DNA of 64,000 nucleotides from Chitinimonas koreensis. Its GTDB lineage: Bacteria; Pseudomonadota; Gammaproteobacteria; Burkholderiales; Chitinimonadaceae. The stretch is from the NCBI RefSeq assembly GCF_014353015.1, contig NZ_CP060704.1, positions 1,282,210-1,346,209 on the forward strand. Direction: 5' to 3'. Below are positions 27,148 to 42,600 of this stretch, one piece after another (the first letter of the stretch is position 1; every line of letters starts with the position of its first letter). The position numbers and the translations under genes are program-made. The notes beneath the pieces are model-generated. The model was not told the DNA's origin and did no database searches. It worked only from the letters and a program-made list of their open reading frames with translations.

Positions 27148-27323
27148 AGGCTGGCTGCCGCGCGGGTGCTGCCCTTGCCCGGTGGCTCGGCAGGCCTTGG
27201 GCCGCGCGCTCCGTTCCTACGCTGGAGAGCGGCGGATTGTAGCCCTACCGTGCTGTTTTCGCCACATGCGGCCGGTGCTGCGCCGGGTCCGGCGCGGCCT
27301 GCCGCGGTACGGCGCGGCGACGC

Positions 27324-28830: not shown

Positions 28831-28903
28831 GGTTTTTCTTGTGGATTGAAGTCGTCCGACGCGCTCGCTCCGGACGGATTGTCAACAGCGTGAAGGTTCT
28901 TCT

Positions 28904-29698
28904 TTAGCAATCACGGATCGCGTTGAACAGCAGTGCATCGAGCGCCGATTCCTCGCCCCCGGGCCGCTTGAAATCCGCCGGCGGCTTGTCGGCAGCCAGT
29001 TCGTGTTCGATGAAGGCGTGGATGCGCGGGAAACGCGCACCGTATTCGGCTTCGCCGGCCGCCATCTTGATCGCCAGCAGCTGGTTGATTTCCTCGCGCA
29101 AGGCCGGATCGGTCACCATCGTGCCGGCCAGTTCGGCGAAGCGCATCGGCGGCATGCCGCGGCCGGTGTCGATCCACTGCGCGGCCAGCAATGGGCGCAG
29201 CACGTAGAGATACTTCTTGAGCCGTACCGTCTCGCCTTGCAGATAGCCGCGGAAATTCTTCTTCGCCATCGCCAGGTAATGCCAGCGCCCCTTGCGTTCG
29301 GAAAAGAATGCCGGTGCCAGGCTCTGCAACTGGCCGGCCACCTGTGCGTCTTCGCGGTAGACGACGGGCGAGTCGAGCCATTCGAACAGCGTCGGATTGG
29401 ACCGCCGTATCAGTTGCAGCGCCTTGCGCAGCTCCCAGCCGCACACGTCGAGCTCGTCGCTGATCGGCACTTCGATGACGTCGCGCTGCGGCTCGACGCG
29501 CAGGTACCAGTCGAGCTCGTGCACGTAGAGAAAGCGTACGTCGTAGTCGCTGTCGGGCGAGGCGAAGCCCCAGCCGCGGCTGCCGGATTCGCAGGCGAAC
29601 AGCACGCGCACGGCGTGGCGCTGCTCGATCGCCGCCAGTTCGGCCTCAATGCGCTGCCGTATTGCCTCATCGATCGGATGAGCGCTCAGAATGGTCAT
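28904..29698 (-). CDS. Pol-beta-superfamily nucleotidyltransferase domain protein, encoded between rtcB and rtcA
   Basis: Minimal NTase motif FACESGSRGWGFASPDSDYDVRFLY (GS...DxD); 264 aa. Confidence 0.6.
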   Translation of the reverse strand: MTILSAHPIDEAIRQRIEAELAAIEQRHAVRVLFACESGSRGWGFASPDSDYDVRFLYVHELDWYLRVEPQRDVIEVPISDELDVCGWELRKALQLIRRSNPTLFEWLDSPVVYREDAQVAGQLQSLAPAFFSERKGRWHYLAMAKKNFRGYLQGETVRLKKYLYVLRPLLAAQWIDTGRGMPPMRFAELAGTMVTDPALREEINQLLAIKMAAGEAEYGARFPRIHAFIEHELAADKPPADFKRPGGEESALDALLFNAIRDC

Positions 29699-29817
29699 GG
29701 AAATTCCCCGTCTTTCAAATCCCGGCGGTCCAGCTTGTATTCCGGCATCTTGCCGCCGGTCGTCACCCGCCCCGGCATTCTGCCAGCCGCAGCCCGGCCA
29801 TCGCCGGGCTGCCGGGC

Positions 29818-31032
29818 TCAACCCTTCACGCAGACCACCTGCCGCAAGGTATGCACGATCTCCACCAATTCCGACTGCGCCGCCATCACCTTGTCGATGT
29901 CCTTGTAGGCCATCGGGATCTCGTCGATCACGTCTTCGTCCTTGCGGCACTCGACGTGGGCCGTCGCCTTGATCTGGTCTGCCACGGTGAACAGCTTCCT
30001 GGCCTTGGTGCGGCTCATGGTGCGGCCCGCGCCATGGCTGCACGAGCAGAACGCTTCCTCGTTGCCGAGTCCGCGCACGATGAAGCTCCTGGCGCCCATC
30101 GAGCCGGGGATGATGCCGAGCTGGCCCTTCCGGGCCGACACGGCACCCTTGCGCGTCACCAGCACTTCGCGGCCGAAGTGGGTCTCCTTCTGCACGTAGT
30201 TGTGGTGGCAGTTCACCGCTTCCACGTCGGCGGCGAAGGGCTTGGCGATCACCTTGCGGGCGGCGGCGACGACGTTCTGCATCATCACCGCGCGGTTCCG
30301 CCGGGCGAAGTCCTGCGCCCAGCCGACTGCTTCGACATAGTCGTCGAAGTGCCGGCTGCCTTCCTCGAAGTAGGCCAGGTCGCGATGCGGCAGGTTGGCG
30401 ATGTGCTGGCGCATGTCCGCCTGCGCCAGTTCGATGAACAGGTTGCCGATGGCGTTGCCCACGCCGCGCGAACCCGAGTGCAGCATGAACCAGACGCGGT
30501 TTTCCTCGTCGAGGCAGACCTCGATGAAGTGGTTGCCGGTTCCCAGCGTTCCCAGGTGCTTGTGGTTGTTGGTGCGCTCCAGCTGCGGATGCTTTTCGGT
30601 GATCCGCTTGAAGCCCTGGTGCAGCTCGCCCCACATGGCGTCGACCGTCGCCGGCGGGACCTCCCAGGCGCCCTTGTCGCGCTTGCCCATCGTCTTGCCG
30701 TGCGGGACCGCGGCTTCGATGGCCGAACGCAGGCCGGCCAGGTCGTCGGGCAGGTCCGCGGCGGTCAGTGTGGTGCGGGCGGCCATCATGCCGCAGCCGA
30801 TATCCACCCCGACCGCGGCCGGGATGATGGCACCGAGCGTCGGGATCACGCTGCCGATGGTCGAACCCTTGCCCAGGTGCACGTCCGGCATCACCGCCAG
30901 GTGCTTGTAGATGAAGGGCATCCTGGCCGTGTTCATCAGCTGGGCGCGCGCTTCTTCTTCGACCGGCACGCCTTGGGTCCACATCTTGATCGGGGCGCCG
31001 TGGGGCACGGCGAGAGTGTCGTACTTGTTCAT
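29818..31032 (-). CDS. rtcB: RNA-splicing ligase RtcB
   Basis: MNKYD..; metal-binding His/Cys motifs (HSGSRGVGNAIG, NCHHNY, CSCSHGAGR); 404 aa. Confidence 0.95.
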   Translation of the reverse strand: MNKYDTLAVPHGAPIKMWTQGVPVEEEARAQLMNTARMPFIYKHLAVMPDVHLGKGSTIGSVIPTLGAIIPAAVGVDIGCGMMAARTTLTAADLPDDLAGLRSAIEAAVPHGKTMGKRDKGAWEVPPATVDAMWGELHQGFKRITEKHPQLERTNNHKHLGTLGTGNHFIEVCLDEENRVWFMLHSGSRGVGNAIGNLFIELAQADMRQHIANLPHRDLAYFEEGSRHFDDYVEAVGWAQDFARRNRAVMMQNVVAAARKVIAKPFAADVEAVNCHHNYVQKETHFGREVLVTRKGAVSARKGQLGIIPGSMGARSFIVRGLGNEEAFCSCSHGAGRTMSRTKARKLFTVADQIKATAHVECRKDEDVIDEIPMAYKDIDKVMAAQSELVEIVHTLRQVVCVKG

Positions 31033-31391
31033 TGCCTGTTTTCCTTGATCGTTCCCGCCATTTTCCGGCGCCGTGCCTGGCGGCAGGCGAGGCAGCGGAC
31101 GGCGGTCGTATACACATCGCCCTGGGCGGTTTCGTACCACCATTGCTGCTGTTCTGCTGTCCATACCTGGTGCGCGCCGCAATCGCGGCAGGTGAAGGCC
31201 AGGTCCTCGTAGTAACCGCGCCCGACGAATGCGGGCGCCCAGTCGCTGCAGTGGGGCGCCAGGAGTGCCAGATTGACCTGCCTGGCTCTCTTGGGTCGGA
31301 CCGCTGCGGGGGCGATCGGCGTCGCTGCTTCCCGCCGCGCCTGGCGTCGCGCCATGATGGCGGCCCGTTTCTGTTTTCCGCTTCGCATCAT
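31029..31391 (-). CDS. Small basic zinc-ribbon protein; stop overlaps the rtcB start
   Basis: CRDCGAHQ...CLACRQ (CxxC..CxxC), Lys/Arg-rich N-terminus. ATGA overlap with rtcB. Confidence 0.45.
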   Translation of the reverse strand: MMRSGKQKRAAIMARRQARREAATPIAPAAVRPKRARQVNLALLAPHCSDWAPAFVGRGYYEDLAFTCRDCGAHQVWTAEQQQWWYETAQGDVYTTAVRCLACRQARRRKMAGTIKENRQ

Positions 31392-31432
31392 GCATTTCCT
31401 TGCCGCCCGGCGGACTCGTCCGCCGGGCGTAT

Positions 31433-32569
31433 CTAGGCTTTCAGTTTCACCAGTCCGTTCAGCAACTGGTCGAGGCCGCCGAATACCGAGATCTTGTCGA
31501 TCCGCTCGGCCAGCCGTTCCAGCGTTTCCAGCTCCTTGAGCCGCAGGGCCGTCGGGTTGTCTTCCATCACCTTGGCGGTGTTCAGCAAGGAGCGGGTCGC
31601 CCCGGTTTCCTCGCGCCGGCGGATCACGTTGGCCTGGGCCGCCTTCTCGGCCTCGACCACCTGGGCCAGCAGCGCCTTCATCTCGCCGGGCAGCACGATG
31701 TCCTTCACGCCCAGGCTGGTCACCTTCACGCCGAAGCCCTGCAGCTTGGCGTCCAGGTGGCGGCTCACCACCTCGTCCACCAGCTGCTTGTTCTCCAGCA
31801 GCTCGTCGAGCGTACGGGTGCCGACGGCGGCGCGCAGGCCGAACTGCAGCTCGCGGTAGATGTGCTCGGCCGGCTTGGGCAGGCAGGAATACGCCAGCTC
31901 GACGTCGTCGAAGTACCAGGTGGCCGCCAGGTTGATGCGCAGGCTCACCTTGTCGCGGGTCAGGATTTCCTGGCCGCCGACTTCCAGCGCCTGCAGGCGG
32001 GTATCCACCAGCTCGACCGCGATGTCGCGGTTGAAGCGCCAGTAGCCGTAGCGCCCCGGCTGCAGCAGCCGGGCCAGCTTGCCGTCCACCCGCAGCAGGC
32101 CGAGATGGAACGCCGGCACCTGCACGTTCAGCACCGCGCCGAGGCCGGCGATGGAACGGCCGCGCAGGCCGGGCTGGGCCATGCGCGCCAGCAGCTCGGC
32201 CGGGACTTCGCAGCCCTCGTTCAGCGCCACGCGCTCCAGGCGTTGCGGCGCGGCGGATTTCCAGTACAGCTTGCGCGAGCCCGGCGGCAGGATTTCCGCC
32301 AGCGCCTCGTTTTCGAAGCGCAGCCCCGCTTCCTCGTCGCCGAGGTCGAACACCTGGAACTGGTCGGCGATCAGGGCCGGCTCGTTGCGCCGCAGGTAGT
32401 CGGCCAGCGGGTGTTCGAACAGCGCCGTTTCCAGCGGGAAGGCGCAGACGCTGTAGCGCTTGTTCGGATCGAACAGCCGGATTTCGCCCGGCGCCAGCAG
32501 GCGCTGGAAATCGCCGTCGCGCAGCAGGAGTGCGCGTTCGTTCTTACGGATGAGGAAGCGTTGCCACAT
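31433..32569 (-). CDS. SPFH/band-7 (stomatin/slipin-like) domain protein
   Basis: Band-7 core (VKDIVLPGEMKALLAQVVEAEKAAQANVIRRREETGA) with long N-terminal extension; 378 aa. Confidence 0.7.
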   Translation of the reverse strand: MWQRFLIRKNERALLLRDGDFQRLLAPGEIRLFDPNKRYSVCAFPLETALFEHPLADYLRRNEPALIADQFQVFDLGDEEAGLRFENEALAEILPPGSRKLYWKSAAPQRLERVALNEGCEVPAELLARMAQPGLRGRSIAGLGAVLNVQVPAFHLGLLRVDGKLARLLQPGRYGYWRFNRDIAVELVDTRLQALEVGGQEILTRDKVSLRINLAATWYFDDVELAYSCLPKPAEHIYRELQFGLRAAVGTRTLDELLENKQLVDEVVSRHLDAKLQGFGVKVTSLGVKDIVLPGEMKALLAQVVEAEKAAQANVIRRREETGATRSLLNTAKVMEDNPTALRLKELETLERLAERIDKISVFGGLDQLLNGLVKLKA

Positions 32570-32828
32570 ATTGTTTTTCTCCTGTTTTCGAATGAGCCGG
32601 CGGTCGCCGATCCGGCCGGGAGGCGGAATGGCCGGCAAGGGTGCGGACGGGCTTCGTGCTGGTCTGTCACGCGACACCTGGCCTGCCAGTGTCGATCGCT
32701 CAGTCACAGCGTCGTGCCTGTCTCTGCCTTGCGGCGATTCCCGTCCCGGGCCGGATCGGCGGCGACGTCGCCGTCGCACCGGGTACTGCCTGTTGCTGCT
32801 TCAAGTCACCTTGTCAGGTGGTTTCGAG

Positions 32829-32901
32829 CGGGAGTCGAACCCGCGACACGCTGATCGGAACCAGCTGCTCTACCCATTGAGCTATCGAATGGCGGCGATT
32901 C
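32829..32901 (-). ncRNA. tRNA-like RNA B (near-complete cloverleaf, anticodon loop TTCCGAT = Arg-CCG-like; acceptor stem imperfect)
   Basis: D-arm GCTCAATGGGTAGAGC, T-arm GCGGGTTCGACTCCCGC, 3' ..CCA. The anticodon stem is 1 nt short (possible indel) and two acceptor pairs are mismatched. Confidence 0.5.
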
Positions 32902-32948
32902 CGGGAATCGAACCCGGAGCGAGCTGCCCGCATCGCCGATGACCGTCT
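32900..32948 (-). ncRNA. tRNA-like minihelix A (acceptor stem + T-arm + CCA only)
   Basis: 5'-CGGCGAT-GCGGGCAGCTCGCT-CCGGGTTCGATTCCCGG-A-ATCGCCG-CCA. Perfect 7 bp acceptor-like stem; no D or anticodon arm. Confidence 0.4.
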
Positions 32949-33057
32949 CCTCGTCGCCGCGGCATGTACGTCCACGACTGGACTGGTGGCGTACACCGGA
33001 GCGGCATCGGAACCGCTGCCCGTCGGCGTGCGCCGATTCGGCGGTCGAGGCTTCCAT

Positions 33058-33073
33058 TGCGAGATGCGTGCCA
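33058..33073 (-). promoter_or_regulatory. Sigma-54 (-24/-12) promoter driving the tRNA-like/SPFH/rtcBA operon
   Basis: Minus strand reads TGGCACGcatcTCGCA against consensus TGGCACG-N4-TTGCA. About 100 nt upstream of minihelix A, divergent from rtcR. Confidence 0.65.
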
Positions 33074-33217
33074 GCTGGGTCCGGCGCATCGGGCAAGGTG
33101 GGTAAGTATCTGTATGGAAATGAATATCGCGTAGCGAGGCCGCCCAGTCCGTTCCGCGTGTCCCGGTTATTTGCAATACAATGAGATAGCTATTTATCCA
33201 AAAAGATAAGGTCGACC

Positions 33218-34800
33218 ATGAAGAAGAACGTCGTATTCGGATTCGTCGGCACCGTGCTGGACTACGTCGGCCGCGGCAGGGATCGCTGGAAGAAATGGCG
33301 GCCGACCATCGGCCTGTGCCAGCAGGAGGATTTGCTGGTCGACCGGCTGGAGCTGCTGCACGACAGCCGGAGCCGCAGCCTGTACGAGCGGCTCAAGGCC
33401 GATATCGCCGCGGTGTCGCCGGAGACCGAGGTGGTGAGCGTCGAAGTCGATCTGCGCGACCCGTGGGATTTCGAGGAGGTCTACGGCCTGCTGCACGACC
33501 TGGCGCGCGGCTACGACTTCGATACCGAGGCCGAGAACTACCTGGTCCACATCACCACCGGCACCCACGTGGCGCAGATCTGCTGGTTCCTGCTGGCCGA
33601 GGCGCGCTACCTGCCGGCCAGGCTGGTGCAGACCTCGCCGCCGCGCAACAAGGAGCAGGGCGACAGCGCCGGCAGCCATGCGGTGATCGATCTCGACCTG
33701 TCGCGCTATGACCGGATCGCGACCCGCTTCGCCCGCGAGCAGGCCGAGACGGTGTCCTTCCTGAAGTCCGGCATCGCCACCCGCAATGCCGGCTTCAACC
33801 GCATGATCGAGCAGATCGAGCGGGTGGCGGTGCGCTCGAAGGCGCCGATGCTGTTCTGCGGTCCGACCGGGGCAGGCAAGTCCTTCCTGGCGCGGCGGGT
33901 ATACGAGATGAAGAAGGTCCGGCACCGGTTGGCCGGCCGCTTCGTCGAGGTCAATTGCGCCACTTTGCGCGGGGACAGCGCCATGTCGGCCCTGTTCGGC
34001 CATGTGAAAGGCGCCTTCACCGGCGCCCAGTCCGAGCGTGCCGGCCTGCTGCGCAGCGCCGACGGCGGCCTGCTGTTCCTGGACGAGATCGGCGAACTGG
34101 GCCTGGACGAGCAGGCCATGCTGCTCAAGGCCATCGAGGAGAAGCGTTTCTTCCCCTCGGCGGCGACCGCGAGGTGGGCAGCGATTTCCAGCTGATCGCC
34201 GGCACGGTGCGCGATCTCAGGCAGTGGGTGGCCGAGGGCCGGTTCCGCGAGGATCTGTACGCCCGGATCAACCTGTGGACCTATGAATTGCCCGGCCTGG
34301 CCGATCGCGCCGAGGACATCGAGCCCAACCTGGAGTTCGAGCTGGCGCGCTTTGCCGGCGAGCACGGCGAGCAGGTGCGGTTCAATGCCGAGGCCAAGCG
34401 CGCCTACCTGAAGTTCGCCGGATCGGCCGAGGCCAGGTGGTCGGGCAATTTCCGCGAGCTGTCCGCCTCGGTCACCCGCATGGCCACCCTGGCCGAGGCG
34501 GGGCGCATCACCGAGACCTGCGTGCAGGAGGAGATCGGACGCCTGCGCCACGCCTGGGGCGGCGCCGAGCGGAGCGCGCTGGAGAGCGTGCTGGGCGAAC
34601 GGCTGCAGGCGCTCGACCTGTTCGACCGGCTGCAGCTGGAAAGCGTGGTCGACGTCTGCCGCCGGTCGAGCTCGCTGTCGGATGCCGGCCGGCGCCTGTT
34701 CGGCATATCGCGGCAGGAGAAGGCCAAGGCCAACGATGCGGACCGGTTGCGCAAATACCTGGCCCGCTTCGATCTGAGCTGGGCGGCCGTGCGCGGGTAG
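33218..34800 (+). CDS. rtcR: Sigma-54-dependent transcriptional regulator RtcR (CARF + AAA+ + HTH), with a frameshift near 34160
   Basis: N-terminal CARF-like domain, Walker A GPTGAGKS, GAFTGA motif. C-terminal HTH in the 33955..34800 frame. Confidence 0.85.
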
Positions 34801-34830
34801 CGGGCCGGCCTGGATGCGCGCCGGCGGCGG

Positions 34831-35220
34831 TCAGAACCAGTAGTCGGCCACGCACTTGCCGTCGCGCGGCAGATCGTCGAAGGTGTCCAGGCCGTCGAAG
34901 TGATCGATCGGGATCTGCGCCACGGCGCCGGGCTCGGCCAGGCGCAGGTTGACGGCGATCCGGCGGCGGCCGTCCTGGCTAGGCCGTTGCGATCGCCAGA
35001 AGGCGACGCAGCCGCAGGTCGGGCAGAAGTGGAACTCGATGGCCTTGCCGCGGATGTAGGTGCGGGTTTCGCCCGAGACCCGGATGCCCTCGTCCTGGTA
35101 GTCGTAGGCCCAGAGCACGCCGTAGCGCCGGCAGACCGTGCAGTTGCAGGCCGTGGCGCCATCGGGCAGGCCGTCGAACTGCCATCGAACCGCGCCGCAG
35201 TGGCAAGTACCTTCGATCAT
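34831..35220 (-). CDS. GFA family (glutathione-dependent formaldehyde-activating / CENP-V-like) zinc protein
   Basis: CHCGAV...CNCTVC...CPTCGC Cys motifs; 129 aa. Confidence 0.7.
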   Translation of the reverse strand: MIEGTCHCGAVRWQFDGLPDGATACNCTVCRRYGVLWAYDYQDEGIRVSGETRTYIRGKAIEFHFCPTCGCVAFWRSQRPSQDGRRRIAVNLRLAEPGAVAQIPIDHFDGLDTFDDLPRDGKCVADYWF

Positions 35221-35316
35221 CGCCGTGTCGCTCCTTCCGTGCCGGCCGCTGCCCGGCGTGAATTCGATCGCGCCTGCCCGGTCGGATCGGCGAGGCGCGC
35301 GCTCGAACCATTCTAG

Positions 35317-35922
35317 TTGCCGCATTTGAAAGAGAGACTCGCGATGACCGCTACGCCATGCCGCACGATCTGCTGGTCGCCCATCTGGAACCGGGATCGT
35401 GAAGGGATCGGGCTGGAGCATCTGGTGCTGGCCGATCGCATCGCCGACGGCGTCGTCCTGGCGATCGACGACGACGGCACGGCCTTCCGGCTCGCCTATC
35501 ACCTCGCCTGGGACGAGTCGTGGCGGCTGCGGGAGGCCGATCTCGCGGTGTTCGCCGCCGGATCCCGCCGCACGCTCGGCCTGCGGGCGGACGGCGAGGG
35601 CTGCTGGCGGCAGGCCGACGGCCGGCACCTGCCCGGGCTCGACGGCTGCATCGATATCGACATCTGGCCCACGCCGTTCACCAACAGCTTTCCGATCTGG
35701 CGTTCGGCGCTGGCCATCGGCCAGCGGCGGGAATTCCGCATGGCCTGGATCTCGGCGCCGGCGCTGACCGTGGCGGCGAGACCGCAGGCGTATACGCGGC
35801 TGGCAGAACGCCGCTACCTGTTCGAAAGCCTGGACGGCGATGGCTTCCGGGCCGAGTTGCCGGTGGACGAGGCAGGCGTGGTGCTGGACTACCCGGGCCT
35901 GTTCCGGCGGGTGGAGGTCTGA
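35317..35922 (+). CDS. Hypothetical protein (putative glycolipid-binding family)
   Basis: ~190-200 aa: RTICWSPIWNRDREGIGLEHLVLAD...; no catalytic motifs recognised. Confidence 0.35.
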   Translation: MPHLKERLAMTATPCRTICWSPIWNRDREGIGLEHLVLADRIADGVVLAIDDDGTAFRLAYHLAWDESWRLREADLAVFAAGSRRTLGLRADGEGCWRQADGRHLPGLDGCIDIDIWPTPFTNSFPIWRSALAIGQRREFRMAWISAPALTVAARPQAYTRLAERRYLFESLDGDGFRAELPVDEAGVVLDYPGLFRRVEV

Positions 35923-35946
35923 TGCGGGAACGCGCTCGGGCCGGCC

Positions 35947-36024
35947 TTGCGGCGGGCCTGGACGTTCTGCCCGATCTGGCGGCGGGCGCCGGAATCCGAC
36001 CGATGTGGACGGGTTTGCGATCCG
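35947..36024. repeat. Degenerate duplicate of the tRNA-Cys 3' half plus 32 bp downstream flank (att-like direct repeat)
   Basis: About 85% identical to 42091-42171 (..GATCTGGCGGCGGGCGCCGGAATCCGACCGATGTGGACGGGTTTGCGATCCGC). Confidence 0.7.
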
Positions 36025-36079
36025 CGGCACGGAAGGGGACGATCCGTCGCCGCCGATCGCCGTCCGGCTGGTCGCGGCT

Positions 36080-37071
36080 TCAGCGCATCGTCAGCACGGC
36101 GGCGCCGTTGAAACGGCCGGCGCGGAGGTCGTCGAGCGCCTGGTTGGCGTCGTCCAGCGCGTAGGGCGTCGCCTGGATGCGCAGCGGCAGTTCGGCGGCG
36201 AGCGCCATGAATTCCAGGCCGTCGGCCCGGGTCAGGTTGGTCACCGAGCGCAGCACCCGTTCGCCCAGAGCAGGGCGTAGGGGAACTGCGGGATGTCGCT
36301 CATGTGGATGCCCGCGCAGACCACGGTGCCGCCTTTGCGCACGCGGGACAGCGCCAGCGGCACCAGCTCGCCTGCCGGGGCGAACAGGATCGCCGCGTCG
36401 AGGCGCTGCGGCGGCGCGGCCGTGCTGTCGCCCGCCCAGCTCGCGCCGAGCTCCCGCGCGAAGCGCTGCGCGGCGAGATCGCCCGGCCGGGTGAAGGCGT
36501 GGACCTCGATGCCCCGGTGGCGCGCGACCTGGGCAACGATGTGCGCCGCGGCGCCGAAGCCGTACAGGCCGAGGCGCCGCGCGGCCGCGACCAGGCGGAA
36601 GGCGCGGTAGCCGATCAGCCCGGCGCAGAGCAGCGGCGCCGCCTCGATGTCGCTGTATGCGGCGGGCAGGTGGAAGCAGAAGGCGGCATCCGCCACGACC
36701 CGGTCGGCGAATCCGCCTTGCAGGGTGTAGCCGTGGAAGCGCGCCTCGGCGCACAGGTTCTCCTGCCCGGCGCGGCAGTATTCGCACTGGCCGCAGACCT
36801 GGCCGAGCCAGGGCACGCCGACGCGATCCCCCGGGCGGAAGCCCGCCACCCCGTCGCCGATCGATTCGACCACGCCGACGATCTCGTGGCCCGGCACGAC
36901 CGGCAGCGCGAGGCCGGGCAGTTCCCCGTCCACCACGTGCAGGTCGGTGCGGCACACGCCGCAGGCGTGGATCCGGATGGACAGCTGTCCGGCGGCCGGC
37001 GCCGGCGTCTCGATCTCCCGGCCGGCGAGCGGAGCGCCGACGGCGACGCAGCACATGGCTCTGCTTTTCAA
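36080..37071 (-). CDS. Zinc-dependent alcohol dehydrogenase, with a frameshift near 36250
   Basis: GVCRTDLHVVDGE, GHEIVGVV, CGQCEYC structural-Zn motif. C-terminus in the 36080 frame. Confidence 0.8.
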
Positions 37072-37141
37072 GGTCTTTCTCCGTGCCTGGAGGCGGCGGC
37101 CGGTCCGGTCTGGAACGCTTTGTCCATGACCGCTCCAGCGC

Positions 37142-37384
37142 TCAGGCCGTCAGCCGCAGCGCCAGCCAGGGCACCAGGTTGAACAGCAGGATGGCGAGCT
37201 TGTAGCCGGCCATCGCGCCGTAGTGGATGGCATCGAAGCGCACCGCCGGCAGGGCGAACCAGCGGCCGTGCAGGCGCCGCAGCCGGTCGTGGCCGAGCGC
37301 GAACACGGCGAACCAGCACAGCAGCACGCCGTAGTTGAGCAGGGTGCAGGCCAGCAGCCAGGCCTCGAGATCGTGACGGTCCAT
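37142..37384 (-). CDS. Small hypothetical membrane protein (80 aa, 2 TM)
   Basis: Hydrophobic segments LLACTLLNYGVLLCWFAVFAL and LAILLFNLVPWLAL. Confidence 0.35.
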   Translation of the reverse strand: MDRHDLEAWLLACTLLNYGVLLCWFAVFALGHDRLRRLHGRWFALPAVRFDAIHYGAMAGYKLAILLFNLVPWLALRLTA

Positions 37385-37394
37385 GTCCGGCTCC

Positions 37395-38222
37395 TCAGTG
37401 CGACATCAGCACCGGCATCTTCATCGTCGCCAGCACGGTGCGGCTGACGCCGCCCAGCATCCGTTCGCGCAGGCGGCCGTGGCCGTACAGCCCCATCACC
37501 AGCAGGTCGGCCAGTTGCTCGGTCGCCAGCGACAGCAGCATTTCGCCGGTGTCTCGCCCCGGCCCGGCCACGCGCTTGATGATCGGGTGGATGCCGCGGC
37601 GGGAGAGGAAGTCGGCCGCATCGTCGCCGGGCGCCATGTCCGCCGTCCACTCGCTGCGGTCGGGATCGATGCACAGCAGCGTGACGCGCGGCGACTCGCG
37701 CAACAGCGGCAGGGCGTCGGTCATCGCGCGCACCGCCTCGCGGCTGCCGTCCCAGGCCACCAGCGCATGCGTCAGCTGTTCGGGCCAGTCTCCGCCGCAG
37801 GGCAGCACCAGCGCCGGGCGGCCGCAGCGCAGCACGGTCGATTCGACAAAATCGGCCGGCAGGGCGGGCCTGGGTCCGTCGCCGTCGTGTTGGCCCAGTA
37901 TCAGCAGATCGTGCCGGCGCGCTTCGCGGCAAGCGGCTGCGACCGGATCGCCGTCCACCTGCCGCCAGTCGGCCTCCTTGCCGACGTGCTGCTCGAACAC
38001 CGTGCGGACCAGGCCGGCGCGGCGTTCGGCCTCCGCGGCCAGGCGGGACTGCAGTTCGCCGACCGGGTGGGGGCCGAGCGCGGGCGAAGGCGTCGTTACG
38101 GCCAGGAACAGCCCGGTCAGGCGGGCATGCCTGTAGCGTTCGGCCAGCCGGGCCGCGTAGCGGACCCGTTCAGCCGCATCCGCGCCGTCGGGCACATGGA
38201 CCAGGATGCTGCGGTAGGACAT
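37395..38222 (-). CDS. Tandem-domain universal stress protein (UspA family)
   Basis: Two Usp domains (ILVHVPDG...; LVAWDGSREAVRAM...GHGRLRERMLGGVSRTVL). Confidence 0.8.
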   Translation of the reverse strand: MSYRSILVHVPDGADAAERVRYAARLAERYRHARLTGLFLAVTTPSPALGPHPVGELQSRLAAEAERRAGLVRTVFEQHVGKEADWRQVDGDPVAAACREARRHDLLILGQHDGDGPRPALPADFVESTVLRCGRPALVLPCGGDWPEQLTHALVAWDGSREAVRAMTDALPLLRESPRVTLLCIDPDRSEWTADMAPGDDAADFLSRRGIHPIIKRVAGPGRDTGEMLLSLATEQLADLLVMGLYGHGRLRERMLGGVSRTVLATMKMPVLMSH

Positions 38223-38367
38223 GGTGGGGTTCTCCTCTTCGACGCCGCCTGCGTGGTGGCTGACCGGATATGTACCCCCGCCGACGCGGCGGCGACTTGA
38301 CCGCAATCAACAGCCTGCGCGGAACGCTGGAGGCGCGACGCCGCGCAAGGACGGCGAGACGGCGAAG

Positions 38368-39207
38368 CTAGGCCGCCAGCCGGATCGGCACGATCGAGCG
38401 GACGATGCCCATCCGGTCGGCCGAGGCCCGCCGCGCATGCGGCGGCGCATTGCCGGCGCCTGCGCTCAGCCCTGCCCGGTCGAGCAGGCGGACGTGCTTG
38501 TTCTGCACGCCGATCCAGCCCATCTCCTGGAACTTGGAAAAGGCGCGGCTCACGGTTTCCAGCTTCAGGCCGAGGTAGCTGCCGATCTCTTCGCGCGTCA
38601 TGCGCAGGTGGAACTCGGCCGGCGAATAGCCGCGTTCGGCCAGCCGGTGCGACAGGTCAAGCAGGAAGGCCGCCACGCGTTCCTCGGCACGCATGTTGCC
38701 CAGCAGCAGCGAGACGCCATAGCTGCGTGCGATCTCGCTGCTCATCGCGCCCAGCAGCCGCTGCTGCAGGCCGGGCAGCTCGCGGCAGGCCTGCTGCAGC
38801 CTGGCGAAGGGCAGGGCGCAGACCTGGCTGTCCTCCAGCGCGATGGCGGTGGTGCCGTGCCAGCCGGTCTGGATCGCGTCCAGGCCGATCAGGTCGCCGG
38901 CCATGTAGAAGGCGGTGACCTGCTCGCGACCGTCCTCGCTCACGATGCAGGTCTTGAAGCAGCCGCTGCGGATGGCGTACAGCTCCTTGAACGCATCGCC
39001 GGCCAGGCAGAGCGTCTTGCCGCGGCGGATCGTCAGGCTGCTCGACATCAGCGCGCCGGACACCTCCCGCGACCCGCCGGCCAGGCAGCCGTCGTGCCGC
39101 CGGCAGTCGGAGCAGGGGTGCCGGCCTCCGCCGCAGTCCGTCGCCGGGCCGAGCCGGCCCGGGCCCTGGGTCATGCCGATTTCACCTGTCGTTTCCATGG
39201 CGTACAT
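38368..39207 (-). CDS. fnr: CRP/FNR-family regulator with N-terminal Cys cluster (FNR/ANR-like oxygen sensor)
   Basis: Cys cluster CGGGRHPCSDCRRHDGC. cNMP-binding fold, then HTH EIGSYLGLKLETVSRAFSKF. Confidence 0.75.
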   Translation of the reverse strand: MYAMETTGEIGMTQGPGRLGPATDCGGGRHPCSDCRRHDGCLAGGSREVSGALMSSSLTIRRGKTLCLAGDAFKELYAIRSGCFKTCIVSEDGREQVTAFYMAGDLIGLDAIQTGWHGTTAIALEDSQVCALPFARLQQACRELPGLQQRLLGAMSSEIARSYGVSLLLGNMRAEERVAAFLLDLSHRLAERGYSPAEFHLRMTREEIGSYLGLKLETVSRAFSKFQEMGWIGVQNKHVRLLDRAGLSAGAGNAPPHARRASADRMGIVRSIVPIRLAA

Positions 39208-39237
39208 CTCCTCCGGTCGTCGGTGCTGCGCTGCGCA

Positions 39238-39633
39238 TCAGATTCCGGGCCTGCCGCCGCCGATCATGCGGACGACGTCCCGGATGCGTTGGAATTCGCT
39301 GCTCTTGTCGAAGAAGTACTGCGCTCCGGCCGCCAGACAGGCATCGCGATAGCGCTTGTCGGCATGGTTGGTCAGCACTGCGAACACGCTGGCGGGCACC
39401 TGCGCCTGCACGGCGCGCAATACCGTCAGGCCGTTGCCGCCGCGCAGCTGCAGGTCGAGCACCACGCAATCGGGCCGTTCGCGCAGGATGCCGACGATGG
39501 CGTCCTCCACCGTGGCCGCCTGGCCGACCAGCTCGACGCCGGACAGCGGGCCGAGCAGTTCCACCAGCCGGACGCGGATGGCGGTGGAGTCGTCGGCCAG
39601 GAAGACCCGGACCGGTTTCGTTGCGATTTCCAT
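39238..39633 (-). CDS. Single-domain response regulator (CheY-like receiver)
   Basis: VRVFLADDSTAIRVRL...VVLDLQLRGGNG receiver motifs; 131 aa. Confidence 0.8.
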   Translation of the reverse strand: MEIATKPVRVFLADDSTAIRVRLVELLGPLSGVELVGQAATVEDAIVGILRERPDCVVLDLQLRGGNGLTVLRAVQAQVPASVFAVLTNHADKRYRDACLAAGAQYFFDKSSEFQRIRDVVRMIGGGRPGI

Positions 39634-39763
39634 GGCAGCCAGTATGGGCGGCGGCCATGGGCCGGCCTATCGGCCCCGGCTGAAGCGGGTGGTCGGCGGA
39701 ATCCGCTATGCGGGGTAGGCGGAAAGGGGAGGCGTGTAGGCGGCCGCCTACACGGGCGGAGGG

Positions 39764-40414
39764 CTAGAGCGGCTTGCCGGCTTCGTCGATCAGCCGCTGG
39801 GCGATGGCGTAGCGCACCAGCTCGGCCGGATTGCTCATGCCCATCTTCTGCAGCAGGCGGGCCTTGTGGGTGCTGACCGTCTTGACCGACAGATGCAGCC
39901 GCTCGGCGATGTCGGTGACGGCCACGCCGGCCACCAGCAGCTGGAAGACTTCGTATTCGCGGTCGGACAGGGTGGTGTGCGGCAGGCCGTGAGCCTGCGG
40001 CATGGCGTCGAGCGCGAGCTGCTCGGCCACCTCGGCGCTGATGTAGGCGCCGCCGCCGGCCACCTTGCGGATGGCCGACACCAACTGGGCCGAGGCGCTG
40101 TCCTTGGTGAGATAGCCCGAGGCGCCGGCGCGGATGGCGCGGATGGCGTACTGGCGCTCCTCGTGCATGCTCAGCACCAGGATCCGCAGCCGCGGCTTCT
40201 CGCCCTTGATCTGCTTGATCAGTTCGATCCCGCTGCGGCCCGGCATCGACATGTCGAGCAGCAGCAGCTCGAACTCCTGCTCGCGCACGCGTTGCAGGGC
40301 CTGGTGGCCGTCCTGCGCCTCGCCCACCACGGCCAGGTCGGGCGCCGCCTGCAACAGCTGCTTGAGTCCTTCGCGGACCAGCGTGTGGTCGTCGGCCAGC
40401 ACGATGCGGATCAT
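39764..40414 (-). CDS. NarL/FixJ-family response regulator (receiver + LuxR HTH)
   Basis: MIRIVLADDHTLVREGL..LLLDMSMPGRSGIELI; C-terminal LSDREYEVFQLLVAGVAVTDIAERLHLSVKTVSTHK. Confidence 0.9.
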   Translation of the reverse strand: MIRIVLADDHTLVREGLKQLLQAAPDLAVVGEAQDGHQALQRVREQEFELLLLDMSMPGRSGIELIKQIKGEKPRLRILVLSMHEERQYAIRAIRAGASGYLTKDSASAQLVSAIRKVAGGGAYISAEVAEQLALDAMPQAHGLPHTTLSDREYEVFQLLVAGVAVTDIAERLHLSVKTVSTHKARLLQKMGMSNPAELVRYAIAQRLIDEAGKPL

Positions 40415-41726
40415 GTCGTCTCCTGTTCGGGGGCAGCGGCAGGCGCACCTCCACGCGGGTGCCGCCGCCGGGCCGGCTGTCGATCGTCGCCTCGCCGCCG
40501 AGCAGGAAGGCCCGCTCGCGCAGGCCGAGCAGGCCTAAGGAGCCCGGCCGCCGCGCCGCGTCGGGCACGAAGCCGCGACCGTCGTCGAGCACCCGGATCC
40601 GCACTTCGCCGGCGGCCTGGTCGAGGTCGATCTCGGCCCGGCTGGCTTCGGCGTGGCGCGCCACATTGGTCAGCGCCTCCTGGACGATGCGGAAGATGGC
40701 CGTCGCCATCGGGTCCCGCCAGGCCAGCGCGGGATTGCCGACCCGGAATACGCAGGGGATGCCGGTGCGTTCGCTGAAGTTGTCGGCCAGCCATTCGATG
40801 CCGGCGACCACGCCCAGGTCGTCGAGGATCAGGGGCCGCAGCTCGGTGGCCAGGCGGCGGGTGGCCTTCACGGTATCGTCGAGCAGCGCCTCCATGCCGG
40901 CCAGCTTGCCCTGCACCGCCGCTTCGGCCGGCAGGCGCTCTCTGAGCCAGCCGACGTCCATCTTGAGCGCGGTCAGCGCCTGGCCCAGCTCGTCGTGCAG
41001 CTCGCGCGCGATGCGGCTCTGTTCCTGCTCGCGCATGGTATGGGCCGCCGCCGCCATCGCCTGCACCTCCTCCTTGGAGTGGCGCAGCGCCTCCTCGGTG
41101 CGGACCCGCTCGGTGACGTCGCGCAGGATCACGGTGTAGAAGCGTGCGCCGTGCTCCTCGACCTGGGAGATCGAGGCGTCGATCGGGAATTCCTCGCCGT
41201 TGCGGCGCAGCCCGGTGATGATGCGGGCCGCGCCCATCCGGCGCGAGCTGACGCCGGTGGCGCCGAACTGGCGGATGTGCTCCCGGTGAACGGCGCGATA
41301 GCGGTCGGGCAGGAACCAGTCGAGCGGCGCGCCGATCGCGCTGTCGCGCGGGCAGCCGAACATCGCTTCGGCGGCGGCGTTGAACAGCACCACGCGCTGC
41401 GATTGGTCGATGGTGATGATGGCATCCATGGCCGATTCGACGATGCCGCCGATGCGCGCCTCGACATCGCGCAAGGCCGCGTGGGCCGCGCGGTCGGCGA
41501 CGGTCTGTCGATGCAGCCACCACAGGTCCAGGGCGGCCAGCGCCAGGCCCAGCAGGGCGGCGAGCGCGAGCGGTAGGGGAGAGGGCCAGCGCAGCAGGCC
41601 CGCGATCAGTACGGCTGCGATCAGCAGCAGGCCGGCCAGCTGCATGTGCACGAACCGGCCGGCCGGACCGGTTCGTCGTGCAGCCGACCGCTCGAATGGC
41701 GACGTACGCACGGCGTCCTCCTTCAT
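40411..41726 (-). CDS. PAS-domain sensor histidine kinase (HisKA_3/HATPase, NarX/DevS class). C-terminus needs a 1-nt correction in a C5 run near 40437
   Basis: TM helices, PAS (IITIDQSQRVVLFNAAAEAMFG), H-box ELHDELGQALTAL and HATPase. Stop and start overlap with the regulator. Confidence 0.8.
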
Positions 41727-42122
41727 GACACGCGCCGTCGGCGCGCACCGAATTGAAATGGTTGGCCGAATCTAAGCCGGTTTCGCCACGCCGCTCAAGC
41801 TGCGTCGACTGCGGCCTCGGGCGTTGTCTTTTTTCGGTGCAGCGCCGGCGGCCCGGACTGGTCCTGGAGCCAGGCGGCACAAGGGCTTGGCCGTCTTTCG
41901 CCCGGCCCGGTCCGGTGAGCGTACGCCAGCGGCTTTGCAGCCCCGAGGCCGGTGCACCCGCTTTTTGGCAACCTTCCCGCTCGCCTTTCCGGTTTGGAAG
42001 ATGGCGCAGGCGCTGGCCTGTCGACGGACGTCTTGTCCGTCAAGCGAGTGGCGTGGGGTGGTTTCAGGCGGCTAAAAGCATTCAGGCCCACCTGGCGGCG
42101 GGCCTGAGCGTTCTGCTTGATC

Positions 42123-42196
42123 TGGAGGCGGGTACCGGAATCGAACCGATGTGGACGGATTTGCAATCCGCTGCATAACCACTTTGCTAACCCGCC
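42123..42196 (-). tRNA. tRNA-Cys (anticodon GCA)
   Basis: Reverse complement GGCGGGTTAGCAAAGTGGTTATGCAGCGGATTGCAAATCCGTCCACATCGGTTCGATTCCGGTACCCGCCTCCA. Confidence 0.9.
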
Positions 42197-42262: not shown

Positions 42263-42338
42263 TGGAGCGGGAGAAGAGTCTCGAACTCTCGACCTCAACC
42301 TTGGCAAGGTTGCGCTCTACCAACTGAGCTACTCCCGC
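42263..42338 (-). tRNA. tRNA-Gly (anticodon GCC), copy 1
   Basis: Reverse complement GCGGGAGTAGCTCAGTTGGTAGAGCGCAACCTTGCCAAGGTTGAGGTCGAGAGTTCGAGACTCTTCTCCCGCTCCA. Confidence 0.9.
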
Positions 42339-42364: not shown

Positions 42365-42440
42365 TGGAGCGGGAGAAGAGTCTCGAACTCTCGACCTCAA
42401 CCTTGGCAAGGTTGCGCTCTACCAACTGAGCTACTCCCGC
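42365..42440 (-). tRNA. tRNA-Gly (anticodon GCC), copy 2
   Basis: Identical to copy 1. Confidence 0.9.
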
Positions 42441-42600
42441 TTCGCTTTCGCTTGTGTGTTGCGAAGAGCCGCCATTATAGGGAGGCGAAAAATCGTGTCA
42501 AGCATCGAGCAGCGTTTATTTGCATTCTTCTGCATCAATCATACTAAGTCATTGTTCTGAAATGCGGCCGCTTCCGGCAGCGATTCGCTCCGCCGCCGCC

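What the first reader, a model, noticed from the sequence alone, without database searches (positions are those of the whole stretch)
35947..42196. ~6 kb insertion at tRNA-Cys bounded by an ~80 bp direct repeat, carrying a hypoxia/redox regulon and no integrase
An intact tRNA-Cys(GCA) sits at 42123-42196 (minus). Its 3' half plus 32 bp of downstream flank is repeated with about 85% identity at 35947-36024. The segment between the repeats encodes a Zn-ADH, a small membrane protein, a tandem USP, an FNR-type oxygen sensor, a CheY-like receiver, a NarL-type regulator and a PAS histidine kinase. That gene set resembles dormancy/hypoxia regulons. A partial tRNA duplicate of this kind is the classic footprint of site-specific integration at a tRNA 3' end. 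No integrase or other mobility gene remains, and the repeats have diverged, which suggests an old, domesticated island.
Basis: seen in the sequence. Interest (0 to 1): 0.55.

Follow-up and report, generated by a model that had tools for sequence, protein, structure and literature searches.

The report
Decayed tRNA-Cys island with low-oxygen genes
A 6-kb block of oxygen-sensing and stress genes in Chitinimonas koreensis sits between an intact tRNA-Cys gene and a decayed copy of that gene's 3' part, which is the usual scar of an old integrase-type insertion that has lost its integrase; it is a tidy but ordinary example.

Summary
tRNA-Cys(GCA) is at 42123-42196 (-). Its 3' 53 nt plus about 73 nt of downstream flank (42050-42175) recur at 35906-36029, and nowhere else in the window (core 77 nt at 86%, E=2e-13). 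The distal copy is a dead fragment.

The window is Chitinimonas koreensis. Three congeners have moaA-tRNA-Gly(2-3)-tRNA-Cys-tRNA-Leu(TAA). Cys and Leu are 14 bp apart in two of them and 1.7 kb apart in the third. In the window they are 15 kb apart, so the whole interval is lineage-specific and the repeat bounds only its proximal 6 kb.

No integrase or remnant was found. GC and GC3 are not deviant.

The cargo is a mosaic of two modules:
- A FixL-like haem-PAS/HisKA_3 kinase, a NarL-type regulator, a lone receiver and a four-cysteine FNR. Their closest relatives are in Burkholderiales.
- USP-DUF6868-Zn-ADH behind a conserved FNR box. An 84% identical copy sits at a different locus in a relative.

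The gene set resembles the Burkholderia cenocepacia lxa low-oxygen locus. Bordetella avium phages carry a comparable attP (tRNA-Cys 3' part plus terminator) next to int.

Verdict: a degenerate tRNA-anchored islet, a new member of a known kind. No empty site was found, so the mechanism is inferred, and interest is low to moderate.

The parts
42474..42501 (-). Consensus sigma-70 promoter (TTGACA-16-TATAAT) of the tRNA-Gly-Gly-Cys operon
   Evidence: 12 of 12 matches
42365..42440 (-). tRNA-Gly(GCC), copy 1
42263..42338 (-). tRNA-Gly(GCC), copy 2. This copy is collapsed in the public draft assembly.
42123..42196 (-). Intact tRNA-Cys(GCA), the regenerated target (attL-like side)
   Evidence: Rfam tRNA, 60.9 bits
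42050..42175 (-). Proximal repeat copy: tRNA-Cys positions ~22-74 plus 73 nt of downstream flank
42082..42107 (-). Terminator-like hairpin (11 pairs) followed by ATGCTTTTAG, inside the repeated flank
   Evidence: z = -3.5
41712..42049 (.). Non-coding gap between the repeat and the kinase gene. No integrase remnant was detected here.
40411..41711 (-). Sensor kinase with a FixL-type haem-PAS domain, HisKA_3 and HATPase. The window has a 1-nt homopolymer deletion at 40428; the gene is intact (433 aa) in the draft.
39764..40414 (-). NarL/FixJ-type response regulator (REC + GerE); its ATG overlaps the kinase stop codon as ATGA
39238..39633 (-). Single-domain receiver protein. Its best match among solved structures is the DevR/DosR receiver domain.
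38368..39198 (-). FNR-type regulator with C-x2-C-x5-C plus a fourth cysteine, the [4Fe-4S] ligand pattern
38297..38310 (.). FNR-box-like palindrome TTGACCGCAATCAA, about 80 bp upstream of the USP start. It is conserved in the relative L090.
37395..38222 (-). Tandem universal stress protein (275 aa)
37142..37384 (-). DUF6868 small membrane protein
36080..37071 (-). Zn-dependent alcohol dehydrogenase (TIGR02822 adh_fam_2). The window has a 1-nt homopolymer deletion at 36263; the gene is intact in the draft.
35906..36029 (-). Distal repeat copy: a decayed tRNA-Cys 3' fragment (35977-36029) plus flank (35906-35976), the displaced fragment (attR-like side). It overlaps the last 17 nt of the Glycolipid_bind coding sequence.
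35344..35922 (+). Glycolipid_bind (PF06475) gene, convergent on the distal repeat
27136..35343 (.). Remainder of the lineage-specific tRNA-Cys to tRNA-Leu interval. It contains GFA, rtcR, a tRNA-like element and the Band_7-zf-RtcB-RlaP-RtcA operon. No integrase is present.
27051..27135 (-). tRNA-Leu(TAA). In congeners this is the immediate neighbour of tRNA-Cys.

Best explanation
The segment 36030-42049 is the remnant of a genetic element that inserted by tyrosine-integrase-type site-specific recombination into the anticodon-arm region of tRNA-Cys in the Chitinimonas koreensis lineage.

**Proposed steps**
1. The incoming attP carried a copy of the 3' two-thirds of tRNA-Cys plus a terminator. 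It rebuilt a working tRNA and closed the Gly-Gly-Cys operon.
2. The host's original 3' part was pushed 6 kb away and has since decayed.
3. The integrase gene was later lost.
4. The interior was remodelled into a mosaic that now behaves as ordinary chromosomal DNA. It holds a self-contained O2-sensing circuit and an FNR-box-controlled USP-DUF6868-ADH effector operon. The circuit consists of a haem-PAS kinase, a NarL-type regulator, a lone receiver and a [4Fe-4S] FNR.

**Shown:** the repeat and its geometry, the decay of the distal copy, absence of these genes at this locus in congeners, absence of an integrase, and the domain and ligand features of the cargo.

**Inferred:** that an integrase made the junctions, the order of events, and regulation by oxygen.
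For: **Repeat and geometry**
- The intact tDNA and a cognate 3' fragment lie in the same orientation, with the island downstream of the tRNA 3' end. This is the principle the Islander database uses to map islands (PMC4383910).
- The fragment begins at the anticodon arm, matching the 'anticodon-centred attP' class that covers 2083 of 3919 Islander islands.
- A repeat of about 124 nt is within the 15-221 bp range reported for tDNA islands (bioRxiv 10.1101/2020.11.02.365908).

**Decay of the distal copy**
- Position 33 has changed from U to C.
- The T-loop reads TCGGA instead of TTCGA.
- The terminator hairpin is lost: z = -0.6, against -3.5 for the proximal copy.

**Relatives**
- Three congeners have tRNA-Cys followed by tRNA-Leu(TAA) after 14 bp (BJB300, PSY-7) or 1.7 kb (C. 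arctica). They share no DNA with the window's interval.

**Cargo origin**
- The best non-self homologues of the kinase are Burkholderiales MAG proteins at 60-72% identity. No Chitinimonas protein other than C. koreensis's own appears in the top 120.
- The same four-gene cassette recurs in unrelated chromosomal contexts.
- Similar gene sets occur on a conjugative Paraburkholderia plasmid, and on a Cupriavidus plasmid close to an integrase and an IS3 element.

**Precedent**
- Bordetella avium temperate phages have, 84 bp after int, a tRNA-Cys fragment running from the anticodon loop to CCA. It is 38/45 identical to the C. koreensis sequence and is followed by a terminator hairpin. ARAGORN finds no full tRNA there.
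Against: - No integrase, excisionase or remnant lies in the 6 kb, in the whole 15-kb interval or in the rest of the window.
- No relative with an empty site carrying the same distal flank was found. The insertion is inferred against more distant congeners only.
- There is no compositional signal: GC is 0.70-0.74 and GC3 is 0.87-0.95, against 0.94-0.96 in neighbouring core genes.
- The repeat extends 73 nt beyond the tRNA and into the end of the neighbouring coding sequence. This is long for a simple att core and needs an extra assumption, either a related donor or tandem integration.
- USP-DUF6868-ADH has an 84% identical homologue at another locus in a relative. At least part of the cargo may therefore have arrived by rearrangement rather than with the element.
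Confidence: 0.6

Rival explanations
1. Tandem accretion. The whole 15-kb tRNA-Cys to tRNA-Leu interval is an array of two decayed islands that used related attP sites. The 124-nt repeat is then the crossover core plus the element-derived P' arm shared by the resident and the incoming element. This would explain why it runs 73 nt past the tRNA and why identity falls with distance from the tRNA.
For: - In congeners tRNA-Cys abuts tRNA-Leu, so 27136-35905 is also inserted DNA.
- Identity falls along the repeat: 85% in the tRNA part, 84% in the near flank, and much weaker in the outer 41 nt.
- Tandem arrays at one tDNA are known, with 125 cases in Islander.
- Phage attP sites supply the tRNA 3' end plus a terminator.
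Against: - No second tRNA-Cys fragment lies next to tRNA-Leu.
- Neither block contains an integrase.
- The distal flank overlaps the 3' end of a functional Glycolipid_bind gene, which is awkward for an attP arm.
Confidence: 0.2
2. Origin without an integrase. A local duplication or illegitimate recombination copied the 3' part of tRNA-Cys and its flank. The genes between the copies accumulated by ordinary chromosomal rearrangement.
For: - There is no integrase and no compositional deviation.
- The repeat includes non-tRNA flank and part of a neighbouring gene.
- The USP-DUF6868-ADH module has demonstrably changed location within the lineage.
- tRNA-Gly genes at this locus duplicate in tandem.
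Against: - A tandem duplication would leave the 5' 21 nt of the second tRNA copy next to the proximal flank. Nothing at 42025-42049 resembles it (read directly from the sequence).
- A fragment limited to the 3' part, starting at the anticodon arm and in direct orientation, is what integrases produce.
- The kinase cassette has no close homologue in any other Chitinimonas among its top hits.
Confidence: 0.15
3. The similarity is a chance match, or belongs to a dispersed repeat family unrelated to tRNA-Cys.
For: None was found. The genome is 70% GC, which inflates weak matches.
Against: - E=1.9e-13 within the window, with only two copies.
- The match aligns position for position with tRNA-Cys, including the anticodon loop and T-arm.
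- The flank motif is absent from 93 other loci and from the metagenome and viral scans.
Confidence: 0.01

Closest known systems
tDNA-anchored genomic islands and prophages, as mapped by Islander (Hudson, Lau & Williams 2015, PMC4383910), anticodon-centred attP class
   Same: - The target tRNA is regenerated.
- A displaced 3' fragment lies in direct orientation at the far end.
- The fragment starts at the anticodon arm.
- The repeat length is within the reported 15-221 bp range.
   Different: - There is no integrase gene, so the locus would fail Islander's filter.
- The repeat copies have diverged to 81-86% identity.
- There is no compositional deviation.
- The cargo is a mosaic.
- The islet is nested in a larger lineage-specific interval.
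attP of Bordetella avium temperate phages vB_BaM-IFTN2/5/9
   Same: A tRNA-Cys fragment from the anticodon loop to CCA, followed by a GC-rich terminator hairpin, lies beside int in phages of another betaproteobacterium, Bordetella avium. This is the kind of element end that would generate the proximal junction seen here.
   Different: - These are complete phages with an integrase.
- Only 38/45 of the tRNA part is identical.
- Homology of the flank beyond the hairpin is not established.
- No phage genes are present in the window's interval.
Burkholderia cenocepacia low-oxygen-activated (lxa) locus (Sass et al. 2013, PMC3721108)
   Same: - It holds the same kinds of genes side by side: ADH, an Anr/FNR-like CRP regulator, a response regulator, a sensor kinase, several USPs and a Zn-ADH.
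- It uses an Anr/FNR-type motif.
- It also lacks any compositional island signal.
- The relative's version of the USP module (L090) sits next to a metal-dependent RNase gene and a nitroreductase-like gene, gene kinds that are also in lxa.
   Different: - lxa has 50 genes over 50 kb, against 7 genes over 6 kb here.
- lxa is not tRNA-linked.
- Expression in low oxygen has not been tested for the C. koreensis genes.
FixL-FixJ(-FixT)-FixK oxygen-sensing cascade of alpha-proteobacteria
   Same: - The kinase has a haem-PAS sensor domain; FixL haem domains are the best matches among solved structures (E=5e-18) and the proximal histidine aligns.
- The response regulator is REC + GerE.
- A lone receiver is encoded alongside.
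- A Crp/FNR regulator is encoded downstream.
   Different: - The kinase core is HisKA_3 (DesK/NarX type), not the HisKA of FixL.
- The regulator scores below the NCBIfam FixJ and FixK cut-offs.
- The Crp-family protein keeps the four FNR cysteines, so it is an FNR rather than a FixK.
Mycobacterial DosS/DosT-DosR dormancy regulon
   Same: - A HisKA_3 kinase is paired with a NarL-type regulator.
- USP genes are the output.
- The lone receiver's best solved-structure match is DevR.
   Different: The sensor domain is PAS, not GAF. An FNR is present. The phylum is different and no orthology is implied.

Membership tests
tDNA-integrated genomic island (Islander definition) | Intact tDNA plus a cognate tDNA fragment on the same replicon, in the same orientation | tested here: met
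   tRNA-Cys at 42123-42196 (-) and the fragment at 35977-36029 (-): 45/53 identical, E=1.9e-13 for the 77-nt core
tDNA-integrated genomic island (Islander definition) | The fragment is the 3' part, and the island lies between the tRNA 3' end and the fragment | tested here: met
   The fragment covers tRNA positions ~22-74, and the genes lie downstream of the tRNA 3' end
tDNA-integrated genomic island (Islander definition) | Tyrosine (or serine) integrase gene inside the interval | tested here: not met
   - Pfam hits on the called genes include no integrase family.
- tblastn with five integrases found nothing significant in the 64 kb.
- ORFs in the non-coding gap have no Pfam hit.
tDNA-integrated genomic island (Islander definition) | Variable presence: relatives show the uninterrupted ('virgin') site | tested here: inconclusive
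   Three congeners lack the genes, and in them tRNA-Cys is followed by tRNA-Leu. No relative has tRNA-Cys followed by the Glycolipid_bind-side flank. The metagenome scans returned nothing, and the genome scan with MoaA returned only distant genera.
tDNA-integrated genomic island (Islander definition) | Excision to a circular form / regenerated attB | not testable with these tools
   This needs PCR on C. koreensis DNA or a read-level analysis.
lxa-like low-oxygen (Anr/FNR-controlled USP) locus | Clustered USP, Zn-ADH, Anr/FNR-like regulator and two-component system genes | tested here: met
   compared with Table 4 of PMC3721108. Similar clusters occur on Burkholderiaceae plasmids.
lxa-like low-oxygen (Anr/FNR-controlled USP) locus | Anr/FNR-type motif (TGA-N6-TCA) upstream of the genes | tested here: met
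   One site, TTGACCGCAATCAA at 38297-38310, lies upstream of USP and is conserved in L090. It is the only site in the window with one mismatch or fewer; 21 of 100 shuffles also gave at least one match.
lxa-like low-oxygen (Anr/FNR-controlled USP) locus | Induction at low oxygen and a survival phenotype | not testable with these tools
   This needs expression and mutant experiments.
FNR ([4Fe-4S] oxygen-sensing Crp-family regulator) | Four cluster-ligand cysteines (C-x2-C-x5-C at the N-terminus plus the equivalent of Cys122) and a Crp-type HTH | tested here: met
   The alignment to Aliivibrio fischeri FNR (5CVR/5E44, E about 1e-50) shows all four cysteines aligned. The NCBIfam Fnr subfamily model scores 202.9 bits, just under its cut-off of 228.
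FixL sensor kinase | Haem-binding PAS domain with the proximal histidine | tested here: met
   FixL haem domains are the top matches among solved structures (8JS5, 1DP6; E=5e-18 to 1e-16). The histidine of 'YRAVH' aligns with the FixL proximal histidine. Haem binding itself is untested.
FixL sensor kinase | HisKA-type (PF00512) phosphoacceptor domain / FixL equivalog score | tested here: not met
   Pfam assigns HisKA_3 (PF07730). The NCBIfam FixL model scores 84 bits against a cut-off of 850.

The most novel reading that the evidence does not exclude
The tRNA-Cys to tRNA-Leu gap of C. koreensis is a stack of two integrase-less, att-bounded islets. In this reading the 124-nt repeat is the crossover core plus a shared attP arm, with a tRNA-Cys-plus-terminator end like that of the Bordetella phage attP. 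The proximal islet delivered a complete plug-in oxygen-sensing circuit, consisting of a haem-PAS kinase, a NarL-type regulator, a receiver and FNR. That circuit then captured a resident FNR-box operon (USP-DUF6868-ADH) from its ancestral locus. This would be regulon assembly inside a decaying mobile element.
Probability: 0.2. Interest if true: 0.4.

Novelty: new member of a known kind. Interest (0 to 1): 0.25.

Why it matters
- **How a decayed island looks.** This is a clean worked example of a tRNA-anchored island after its mobility genes are gone. Only a diverged tRNA fragment betrays it, and composition-based or integrase-based island finders would miss it.
- **Effect on the tRNA operon.** The insertion cut an ancestral Gly-Cys-Leu tRNA cluster. 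The repeated flank now carries the terminator that ends the Gly-Gly-Cys unit, and a TACAAT motif lies upstream of the now separated tRNA-Leu.
- **A movable oxygen-sensing cassette.** The cargo documents that the haem-PAS/HisKA_3 kinase, NarL-type regulator, receiver and FNR recur together as one cassette across Betaproteobacteria. Here the cassette is joined to an FNR-box USP-ADH operon. This is useful background for work on low-oxygen persistence loci such as lxa.

None of this changes current understanding.

Tried and rejected
- **Genome scan with MoaA.** They had no synteny and no tRNA-Cys near moaA.
- **Metagenome scans** for the flank motif and for the C. koreensis tRNA-Cys T-arm variant returned no hits.
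- **Viral-contig scans** for the tRNA-Cys 3' half returned no hits.
- **Second tRNA-Cys or tRNA-Leu fragment near tRNA-Leu:** none found.
- **Shared DNA** between the C. arctica tRNA-Cys to tRNA-Leu spacer and the window's 15 kb: none apart from the tRNAs.
- **Glycolipid_bind remnant downstream of tRNA-Cys in C. arctica:** none by tblastn.
- **Integrase remnants.** The weak tblastn hits at 27357-27494 (E=0.07) and 63561-63722 (E=0.02) were rejected. The first was not returned in a repeat tblastn run at E<0.1, and the second lies in an AhpC gene.
- **Frameshifts in rtcR, ADH and the kinase** were considered as signs of pseudogenisation and rejected. All are 1-nt homopolymer deletions relative to the public draft, in which the genes are intact.
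- **Pseudomonas phage hits** to tRNA-Cys are full phage-encoded tRNA genes, not attP sites.
- **Williams 2002 (PMC100330)** is not held in the paper library.

Full report
**1. Observation**

ARAGORN and Rfam place tRNA-Cys(GCA) at 42123-42196 on the minus strand. Two identical tRNA-Gly(GCC) genes precede it at 42365-42440 and 42263-42338. A perfect sigma-70 consensus promoter (42501-42474) lies upstream of the array. An 11-pair terminator-like hairpin followed by ATGCTTTTAG (42107-42082) lies just after tRNA-Cys.

The reported repeat is real:
- The repeat finder gives 35929-36029 vs 42075-42175, 101 nt at 81% without gaps. This is the strongest direct repeat in the 30-48 kb region apart from the tRNA-Gly duplication.
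- blastn-short gives 77 nt at 85.7%, E=1.9e-13, with no third copy in the 64 kb.
- The best local alignment under strict scoring runs 35906-36029 vs 42050-42175.
- Identity is 45/53 in the tRNA part and 27/32 in the adjacent flank. The outer 41 nt are weaker but non-random: 32 of 20000 random window pairs score as well.

The repeated unit is therefore tRNA-Cys from about position 22 (the start of the anticodon arm) to CCA, plus about 73 nt of downstream flank. That flank includes the terminator. In the distal copy it also includes the last 17 nt of the convergent Glycolipid_bind gene.

The distal copy is dead. Position 33 has changed from U to C, an anticodon-stem pair is broken, and the T-loop reads TCGGA instead of TTCGA. 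Its hairpin no longer folds better than shuffled sequence, with z = -0.6 against -3.5 for the proximal copy.

**2. Source, and a caveat about the window**

The MoaA protein encoded next to the tRNAs is 100% identical to that of Chitinimonas koreensis. The window matches the public draft KE386750.1 at 99.9% or better in both aligned blocks. The differences are:
- three substitutions;
- a second tRNA-Gly copy, which is collapsed in the draft;
- twelve single-base deletions, all in G or C runs.

Three of those deletions frameshift rtcR, the ADH gene and the kinase gene. All three genes are intact in the draft. I read these as assembly artefacts, not pseudogenes.

**3. What lies between the repeats**

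All seven genes are on the minus strand.
- **Sensor kinase (40411-41711).** It has a PAS domain, HisKA_3 and HATPase. The best matches of the PAS domain among solved structures are FixL haem domains (E=5e-18) and DosP, and the FixL proximal histidine aligns. The kinase core resembles DesK and NarX.
- **NarL/FixJ-type response regulator (39764-40414).** Its ATG overlaps the kinase stop codon.
- **Lone receiver (39238-39633).** Its best solved-structure match is the DevR receiver domain.
- **FNR (38368-39198).** Its C-x2-C-x5-C motif and fourth cysteine align with the [4Fe-4S] ligands of Aliivibrio fischeri FNR, E about 1e-50.
- **Tandem USP (37395-38222).**
- **DUF6868 (37142-37384).**
- **Zn-ADH (36080-37071).** It passes the cut-off of TIGR02822.

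The only FNR-box-like site in the window with one mismatch or fewer, TTGACCGCAATCAA at 38297-38310, sits about 80 bp upstream of the USP start. It is conserved in a relative.

The likely logic is as follows, inferred from domain content. Oxygen is sensed twice, by the haem-PAS kinase and by the FNR cluster. FNR, and perhaps the NarL-type regulator, then switch on USP-DUF6868-ADH. The lone receiver may act as a phosphate sink or a feedback element. Induction by low oxygen is untested.

**4. Relatives**

The single genome scan returned only distant genera without synteny. Protein look-ups were more useful.
- In Chitinimonas sp. BJB300 and Chitinimonas sp. PSY-7, the order is moaA, three tRNA-Gly genes, tRNA-Cys, then tRNA-Leu(TAA) after only 14 bp. 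An integrase with phage genes follows tRNA-Leu.
- In C. arctica, tRNA-Cys and tRNA-Leu are 1.67 kb apart with a beta-lactamase gene between them. An integrase again follows tRNA-Leu.
- In the window, tRNA-Leu(TAA) is at 27051-27135. That is 14,987 bp beyond tRNA-Cys.

The ancestral neighbour of tRNA-Cys is therefore tRNA-Leu, and everything in 27136-42122 is lineage-specific. The distal 9 kb holds Glycolipid_bind, GFA, rtcR and a Band_7-zf-RtcB-RlaP-RtcA operon. It shares no DNA with the C. arctica spacer.

No second tRNA-Cys fragment lies next to tRNA-Leu.

**5. The 6 kb is a mosaic**

*Regulatory cassette.* The best non-self homologues of the kinase are Burkholderiales metagenome-assembled proteins at 60-72% identity. 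No protein from another Chitinimonas species is among the top 120. The four-gene cassette of kinase, NarL-type regulator, receiver and FNR recurs intact in unrelated chromosomal neighbourhoods, for example next to hemN, USP and haemerythrin genes.

*Effector module.* USP-DUF6868-ADH has an 84% identical DNA homologue on a Logan metagenome contig (L090 2480-4804, matching window 38364-36050). There it is flanked by a beta-CASP RNase gene and a thymidine-phosphorylase-like gene on one side. On the other side is a nitroreductase-like gene preceded by a perfect FNR box. C. viridis has its USP a few kilobases from the same beta-CASP/thymidine-phosphorylase pair, with only small ORFs between, so that location looks ancestral. 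In C. koreensis the module has moved. Homology with L090 stops at 36050, about 20 nt short of the tRNA fragment, and at 38364, at the 3' end of fnr.

*Composition.* GC is 0.70-0.74 across the island and GC3 is 0.87-0.95. Neighbouring core genes have GC3 of 0.94-0.96. There is no compositional signature.

*Mobility of similar gene sets.* Comparable sets (USPs, PAS kinase, regulator, receiver, Fnr, Zn-ADH) occur on a conjugative Paraburkholderia graminis plasmid. They also occur on a Cupriavidus metallidurans plasmid close to an integrase and an IS3 element.

**6. Mechanism**

Integrase-mediated insertion into a tRNA gene splits the gene. The element restores it with its own copy of the 3' part, and the displaced host fragment marks the far end (PMC4383910). 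The geometry here matches in four respects: orientation, a 3' fragment, a start at the anticodon arm, and genes downstream of the tRNA. The start at the anticodon arm corresponds to the 'anticodon-centred attP' class, 2083 of 3919 islands. The repeat length falls within the 15-221 bp reported for tDNA islands, some of which lack an integrase.

A direct precedent turned up. Bordetella avium temperate phages vB_BaM-IFTN2/5/9 carry a tRNA-Cys fragment 84 bp downstream of int. It runs from the anticodon loop to CCA, is 38/45 identical to the C. koreensis sequence, and is followed by a GC-rich terminator hairpin. ARAGORN finds no full tRNA there. An element end of that kind would produce the proximal junction seen here, including a terminator that now ends the Gly-Gly-Cys operon. 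The separated tRNA-Leu has a TACAAT motif (a possible -10 element, not detected by any scan) upstream of it.

Against the model:
- No integrase or remnant was found.
- No empty site was found.
- The repeat extends unusually far past the tRNA and into the neighbouring gene.

Two variants could account for the long repeat. The donor may have been a close relative with the same local arrangement. Alternatively, two related elements integrated in tandem, so that the repeat is the core plus a shared attP arm. The second variant also fits the decline in identity away from the tRNA. A duplication without an integrase is less parsimonious, because no 5' tRNA piece lies next to the proximal flank (read from the sequence).

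I put integrase-type origin at about 0.6 for the simple model, plus about 0.2 for the tandem variant. Non-integrase rearrangement is at about 0.15, and chance is negligible.

**7. Comparison with known systems**

As an island, this is a degenerate member of the tDNA-anchored class and fails the integrase criterion.

As a regulon, it is a compact counterpart of the core of the Burkholderia cenocepacia lxa low-oxygen locus. That locus has an ADH, an Anr-like CRP regulator, a response regulator, a sensor kinase, USPs and a Zn-ADH, with a metal-dependent RNase and a nitroreductase nearby. It uses an Anr/FNR-type motif and likewise shows no compositional island signal (PMC3721108).

The kinase works like FixL at its sensor end but is not a FixL. 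Its phosphoacceptor domain is HisKA_3, and it scores far below the FixL equivalog cut-off. The Crp-family protein is an FNR, not a FixK. The resemblance to DosS/DosR is limited to the HisKA_3/NarL pairing and the USP output.

**8. Verdict**

The scar, the absence of an integrase and the hypoxia theme all hold. However, the 'island' is the proximal, mosaic part of a larger lineage-specific insertion between tRNA-Cys and tRNA-Leu. The proposed empty site was not found in any available relative, and composition gives no signal.

This is a new member of a known kind. Interest is low to moderate (0.25).

Noticed in passing
window 32820-32891 (-), with 33059-33073 and ~32901-32914: A tRNA-like element lies in the leader between a sigma-54-like promoter (TGGCACGCATCTCGC) and the Band_7-zf-RtcB-RlaP-RtcA RNA-repair operon, which is divergent from rtcR. 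ARAGORN calls it 'tRNA-???'; Rfam scores it 43 bits for tRNA and 30 bits for YrlA, below the gathering score. A second T-arm-like motif precedes it. No Rsr/Ro gene is present. It may be a Y-RNA-like or tRNA-mimic RNA linked to RtcR control.
   Followed up: partly
window 32744, 34152, 36263, 40428, 46809, 46877, 48366, 48756, 51381, 51554, 52048, 53391: Twelve single-base deletions relative to the public draft KE386750.1, all in G/C homopolymers. Three of them frameshift rtcR, the ADH gene and the kinase gene; the effect of the other nine was not checked. These look like consensus errors of a long-read assembly, not pseudogenes. The window correctly resolves two tRNA-Gly copies where the draft has one.
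   Followed up: yes
L082 13378-14415, L083 11776-12783, L094 4367-5506: In all three congeners an integrase with phage genes sits immediately after tRNA-Leu(TAA). That tRNA is therefore an integration hotspot in the genus. C. koreensis has no element there; a strong terminator and CheR follow instead.
   Followed up: partly
L097 3501-3582 (Bordetella phage vB_BaM-IFTN2): An unannotated attP-like tRNA-Cys 3' fragment plus terminator hairpin lies 84 bp after the integrase gene. The same feature is present in phages IFTN5 and IFTN9.
   Followed up: partly
L082 11681-11712 (C. arctica): A possible second, heavily decayed tRNA-Cys fragment lies 100 nt after the intact gene. It is 75% identical over 32 nt and starts at the same tRNA position as the C. 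koreensis fragment. The match is too short to be sure it is not chance.
   Followed up: partly
L090 ~4815-4830: A perfect FNR box, TTGATGCGGATCAA, lies between the ADH gene and a nitroreductase-like gene in the relative's version of the USP-DUF6868-ADH locus. This suggests a wider FNR regulon at the ancestral location.
   Followed up: no
window 42123-42196 vs L082, L083, L094 tRNA-Cys: The C. koreensis tRNA-Cys has a different variable-loop and T-stem sequence (ACATCGG...CCGGTA) from all three congeners (TCCCGG/TCCCAG...CCGGGA/CTGGGA). The decayed distal fragment shares the C. koreensis variant. This variant was absent from the metagenome collection.
   Followed up: partly
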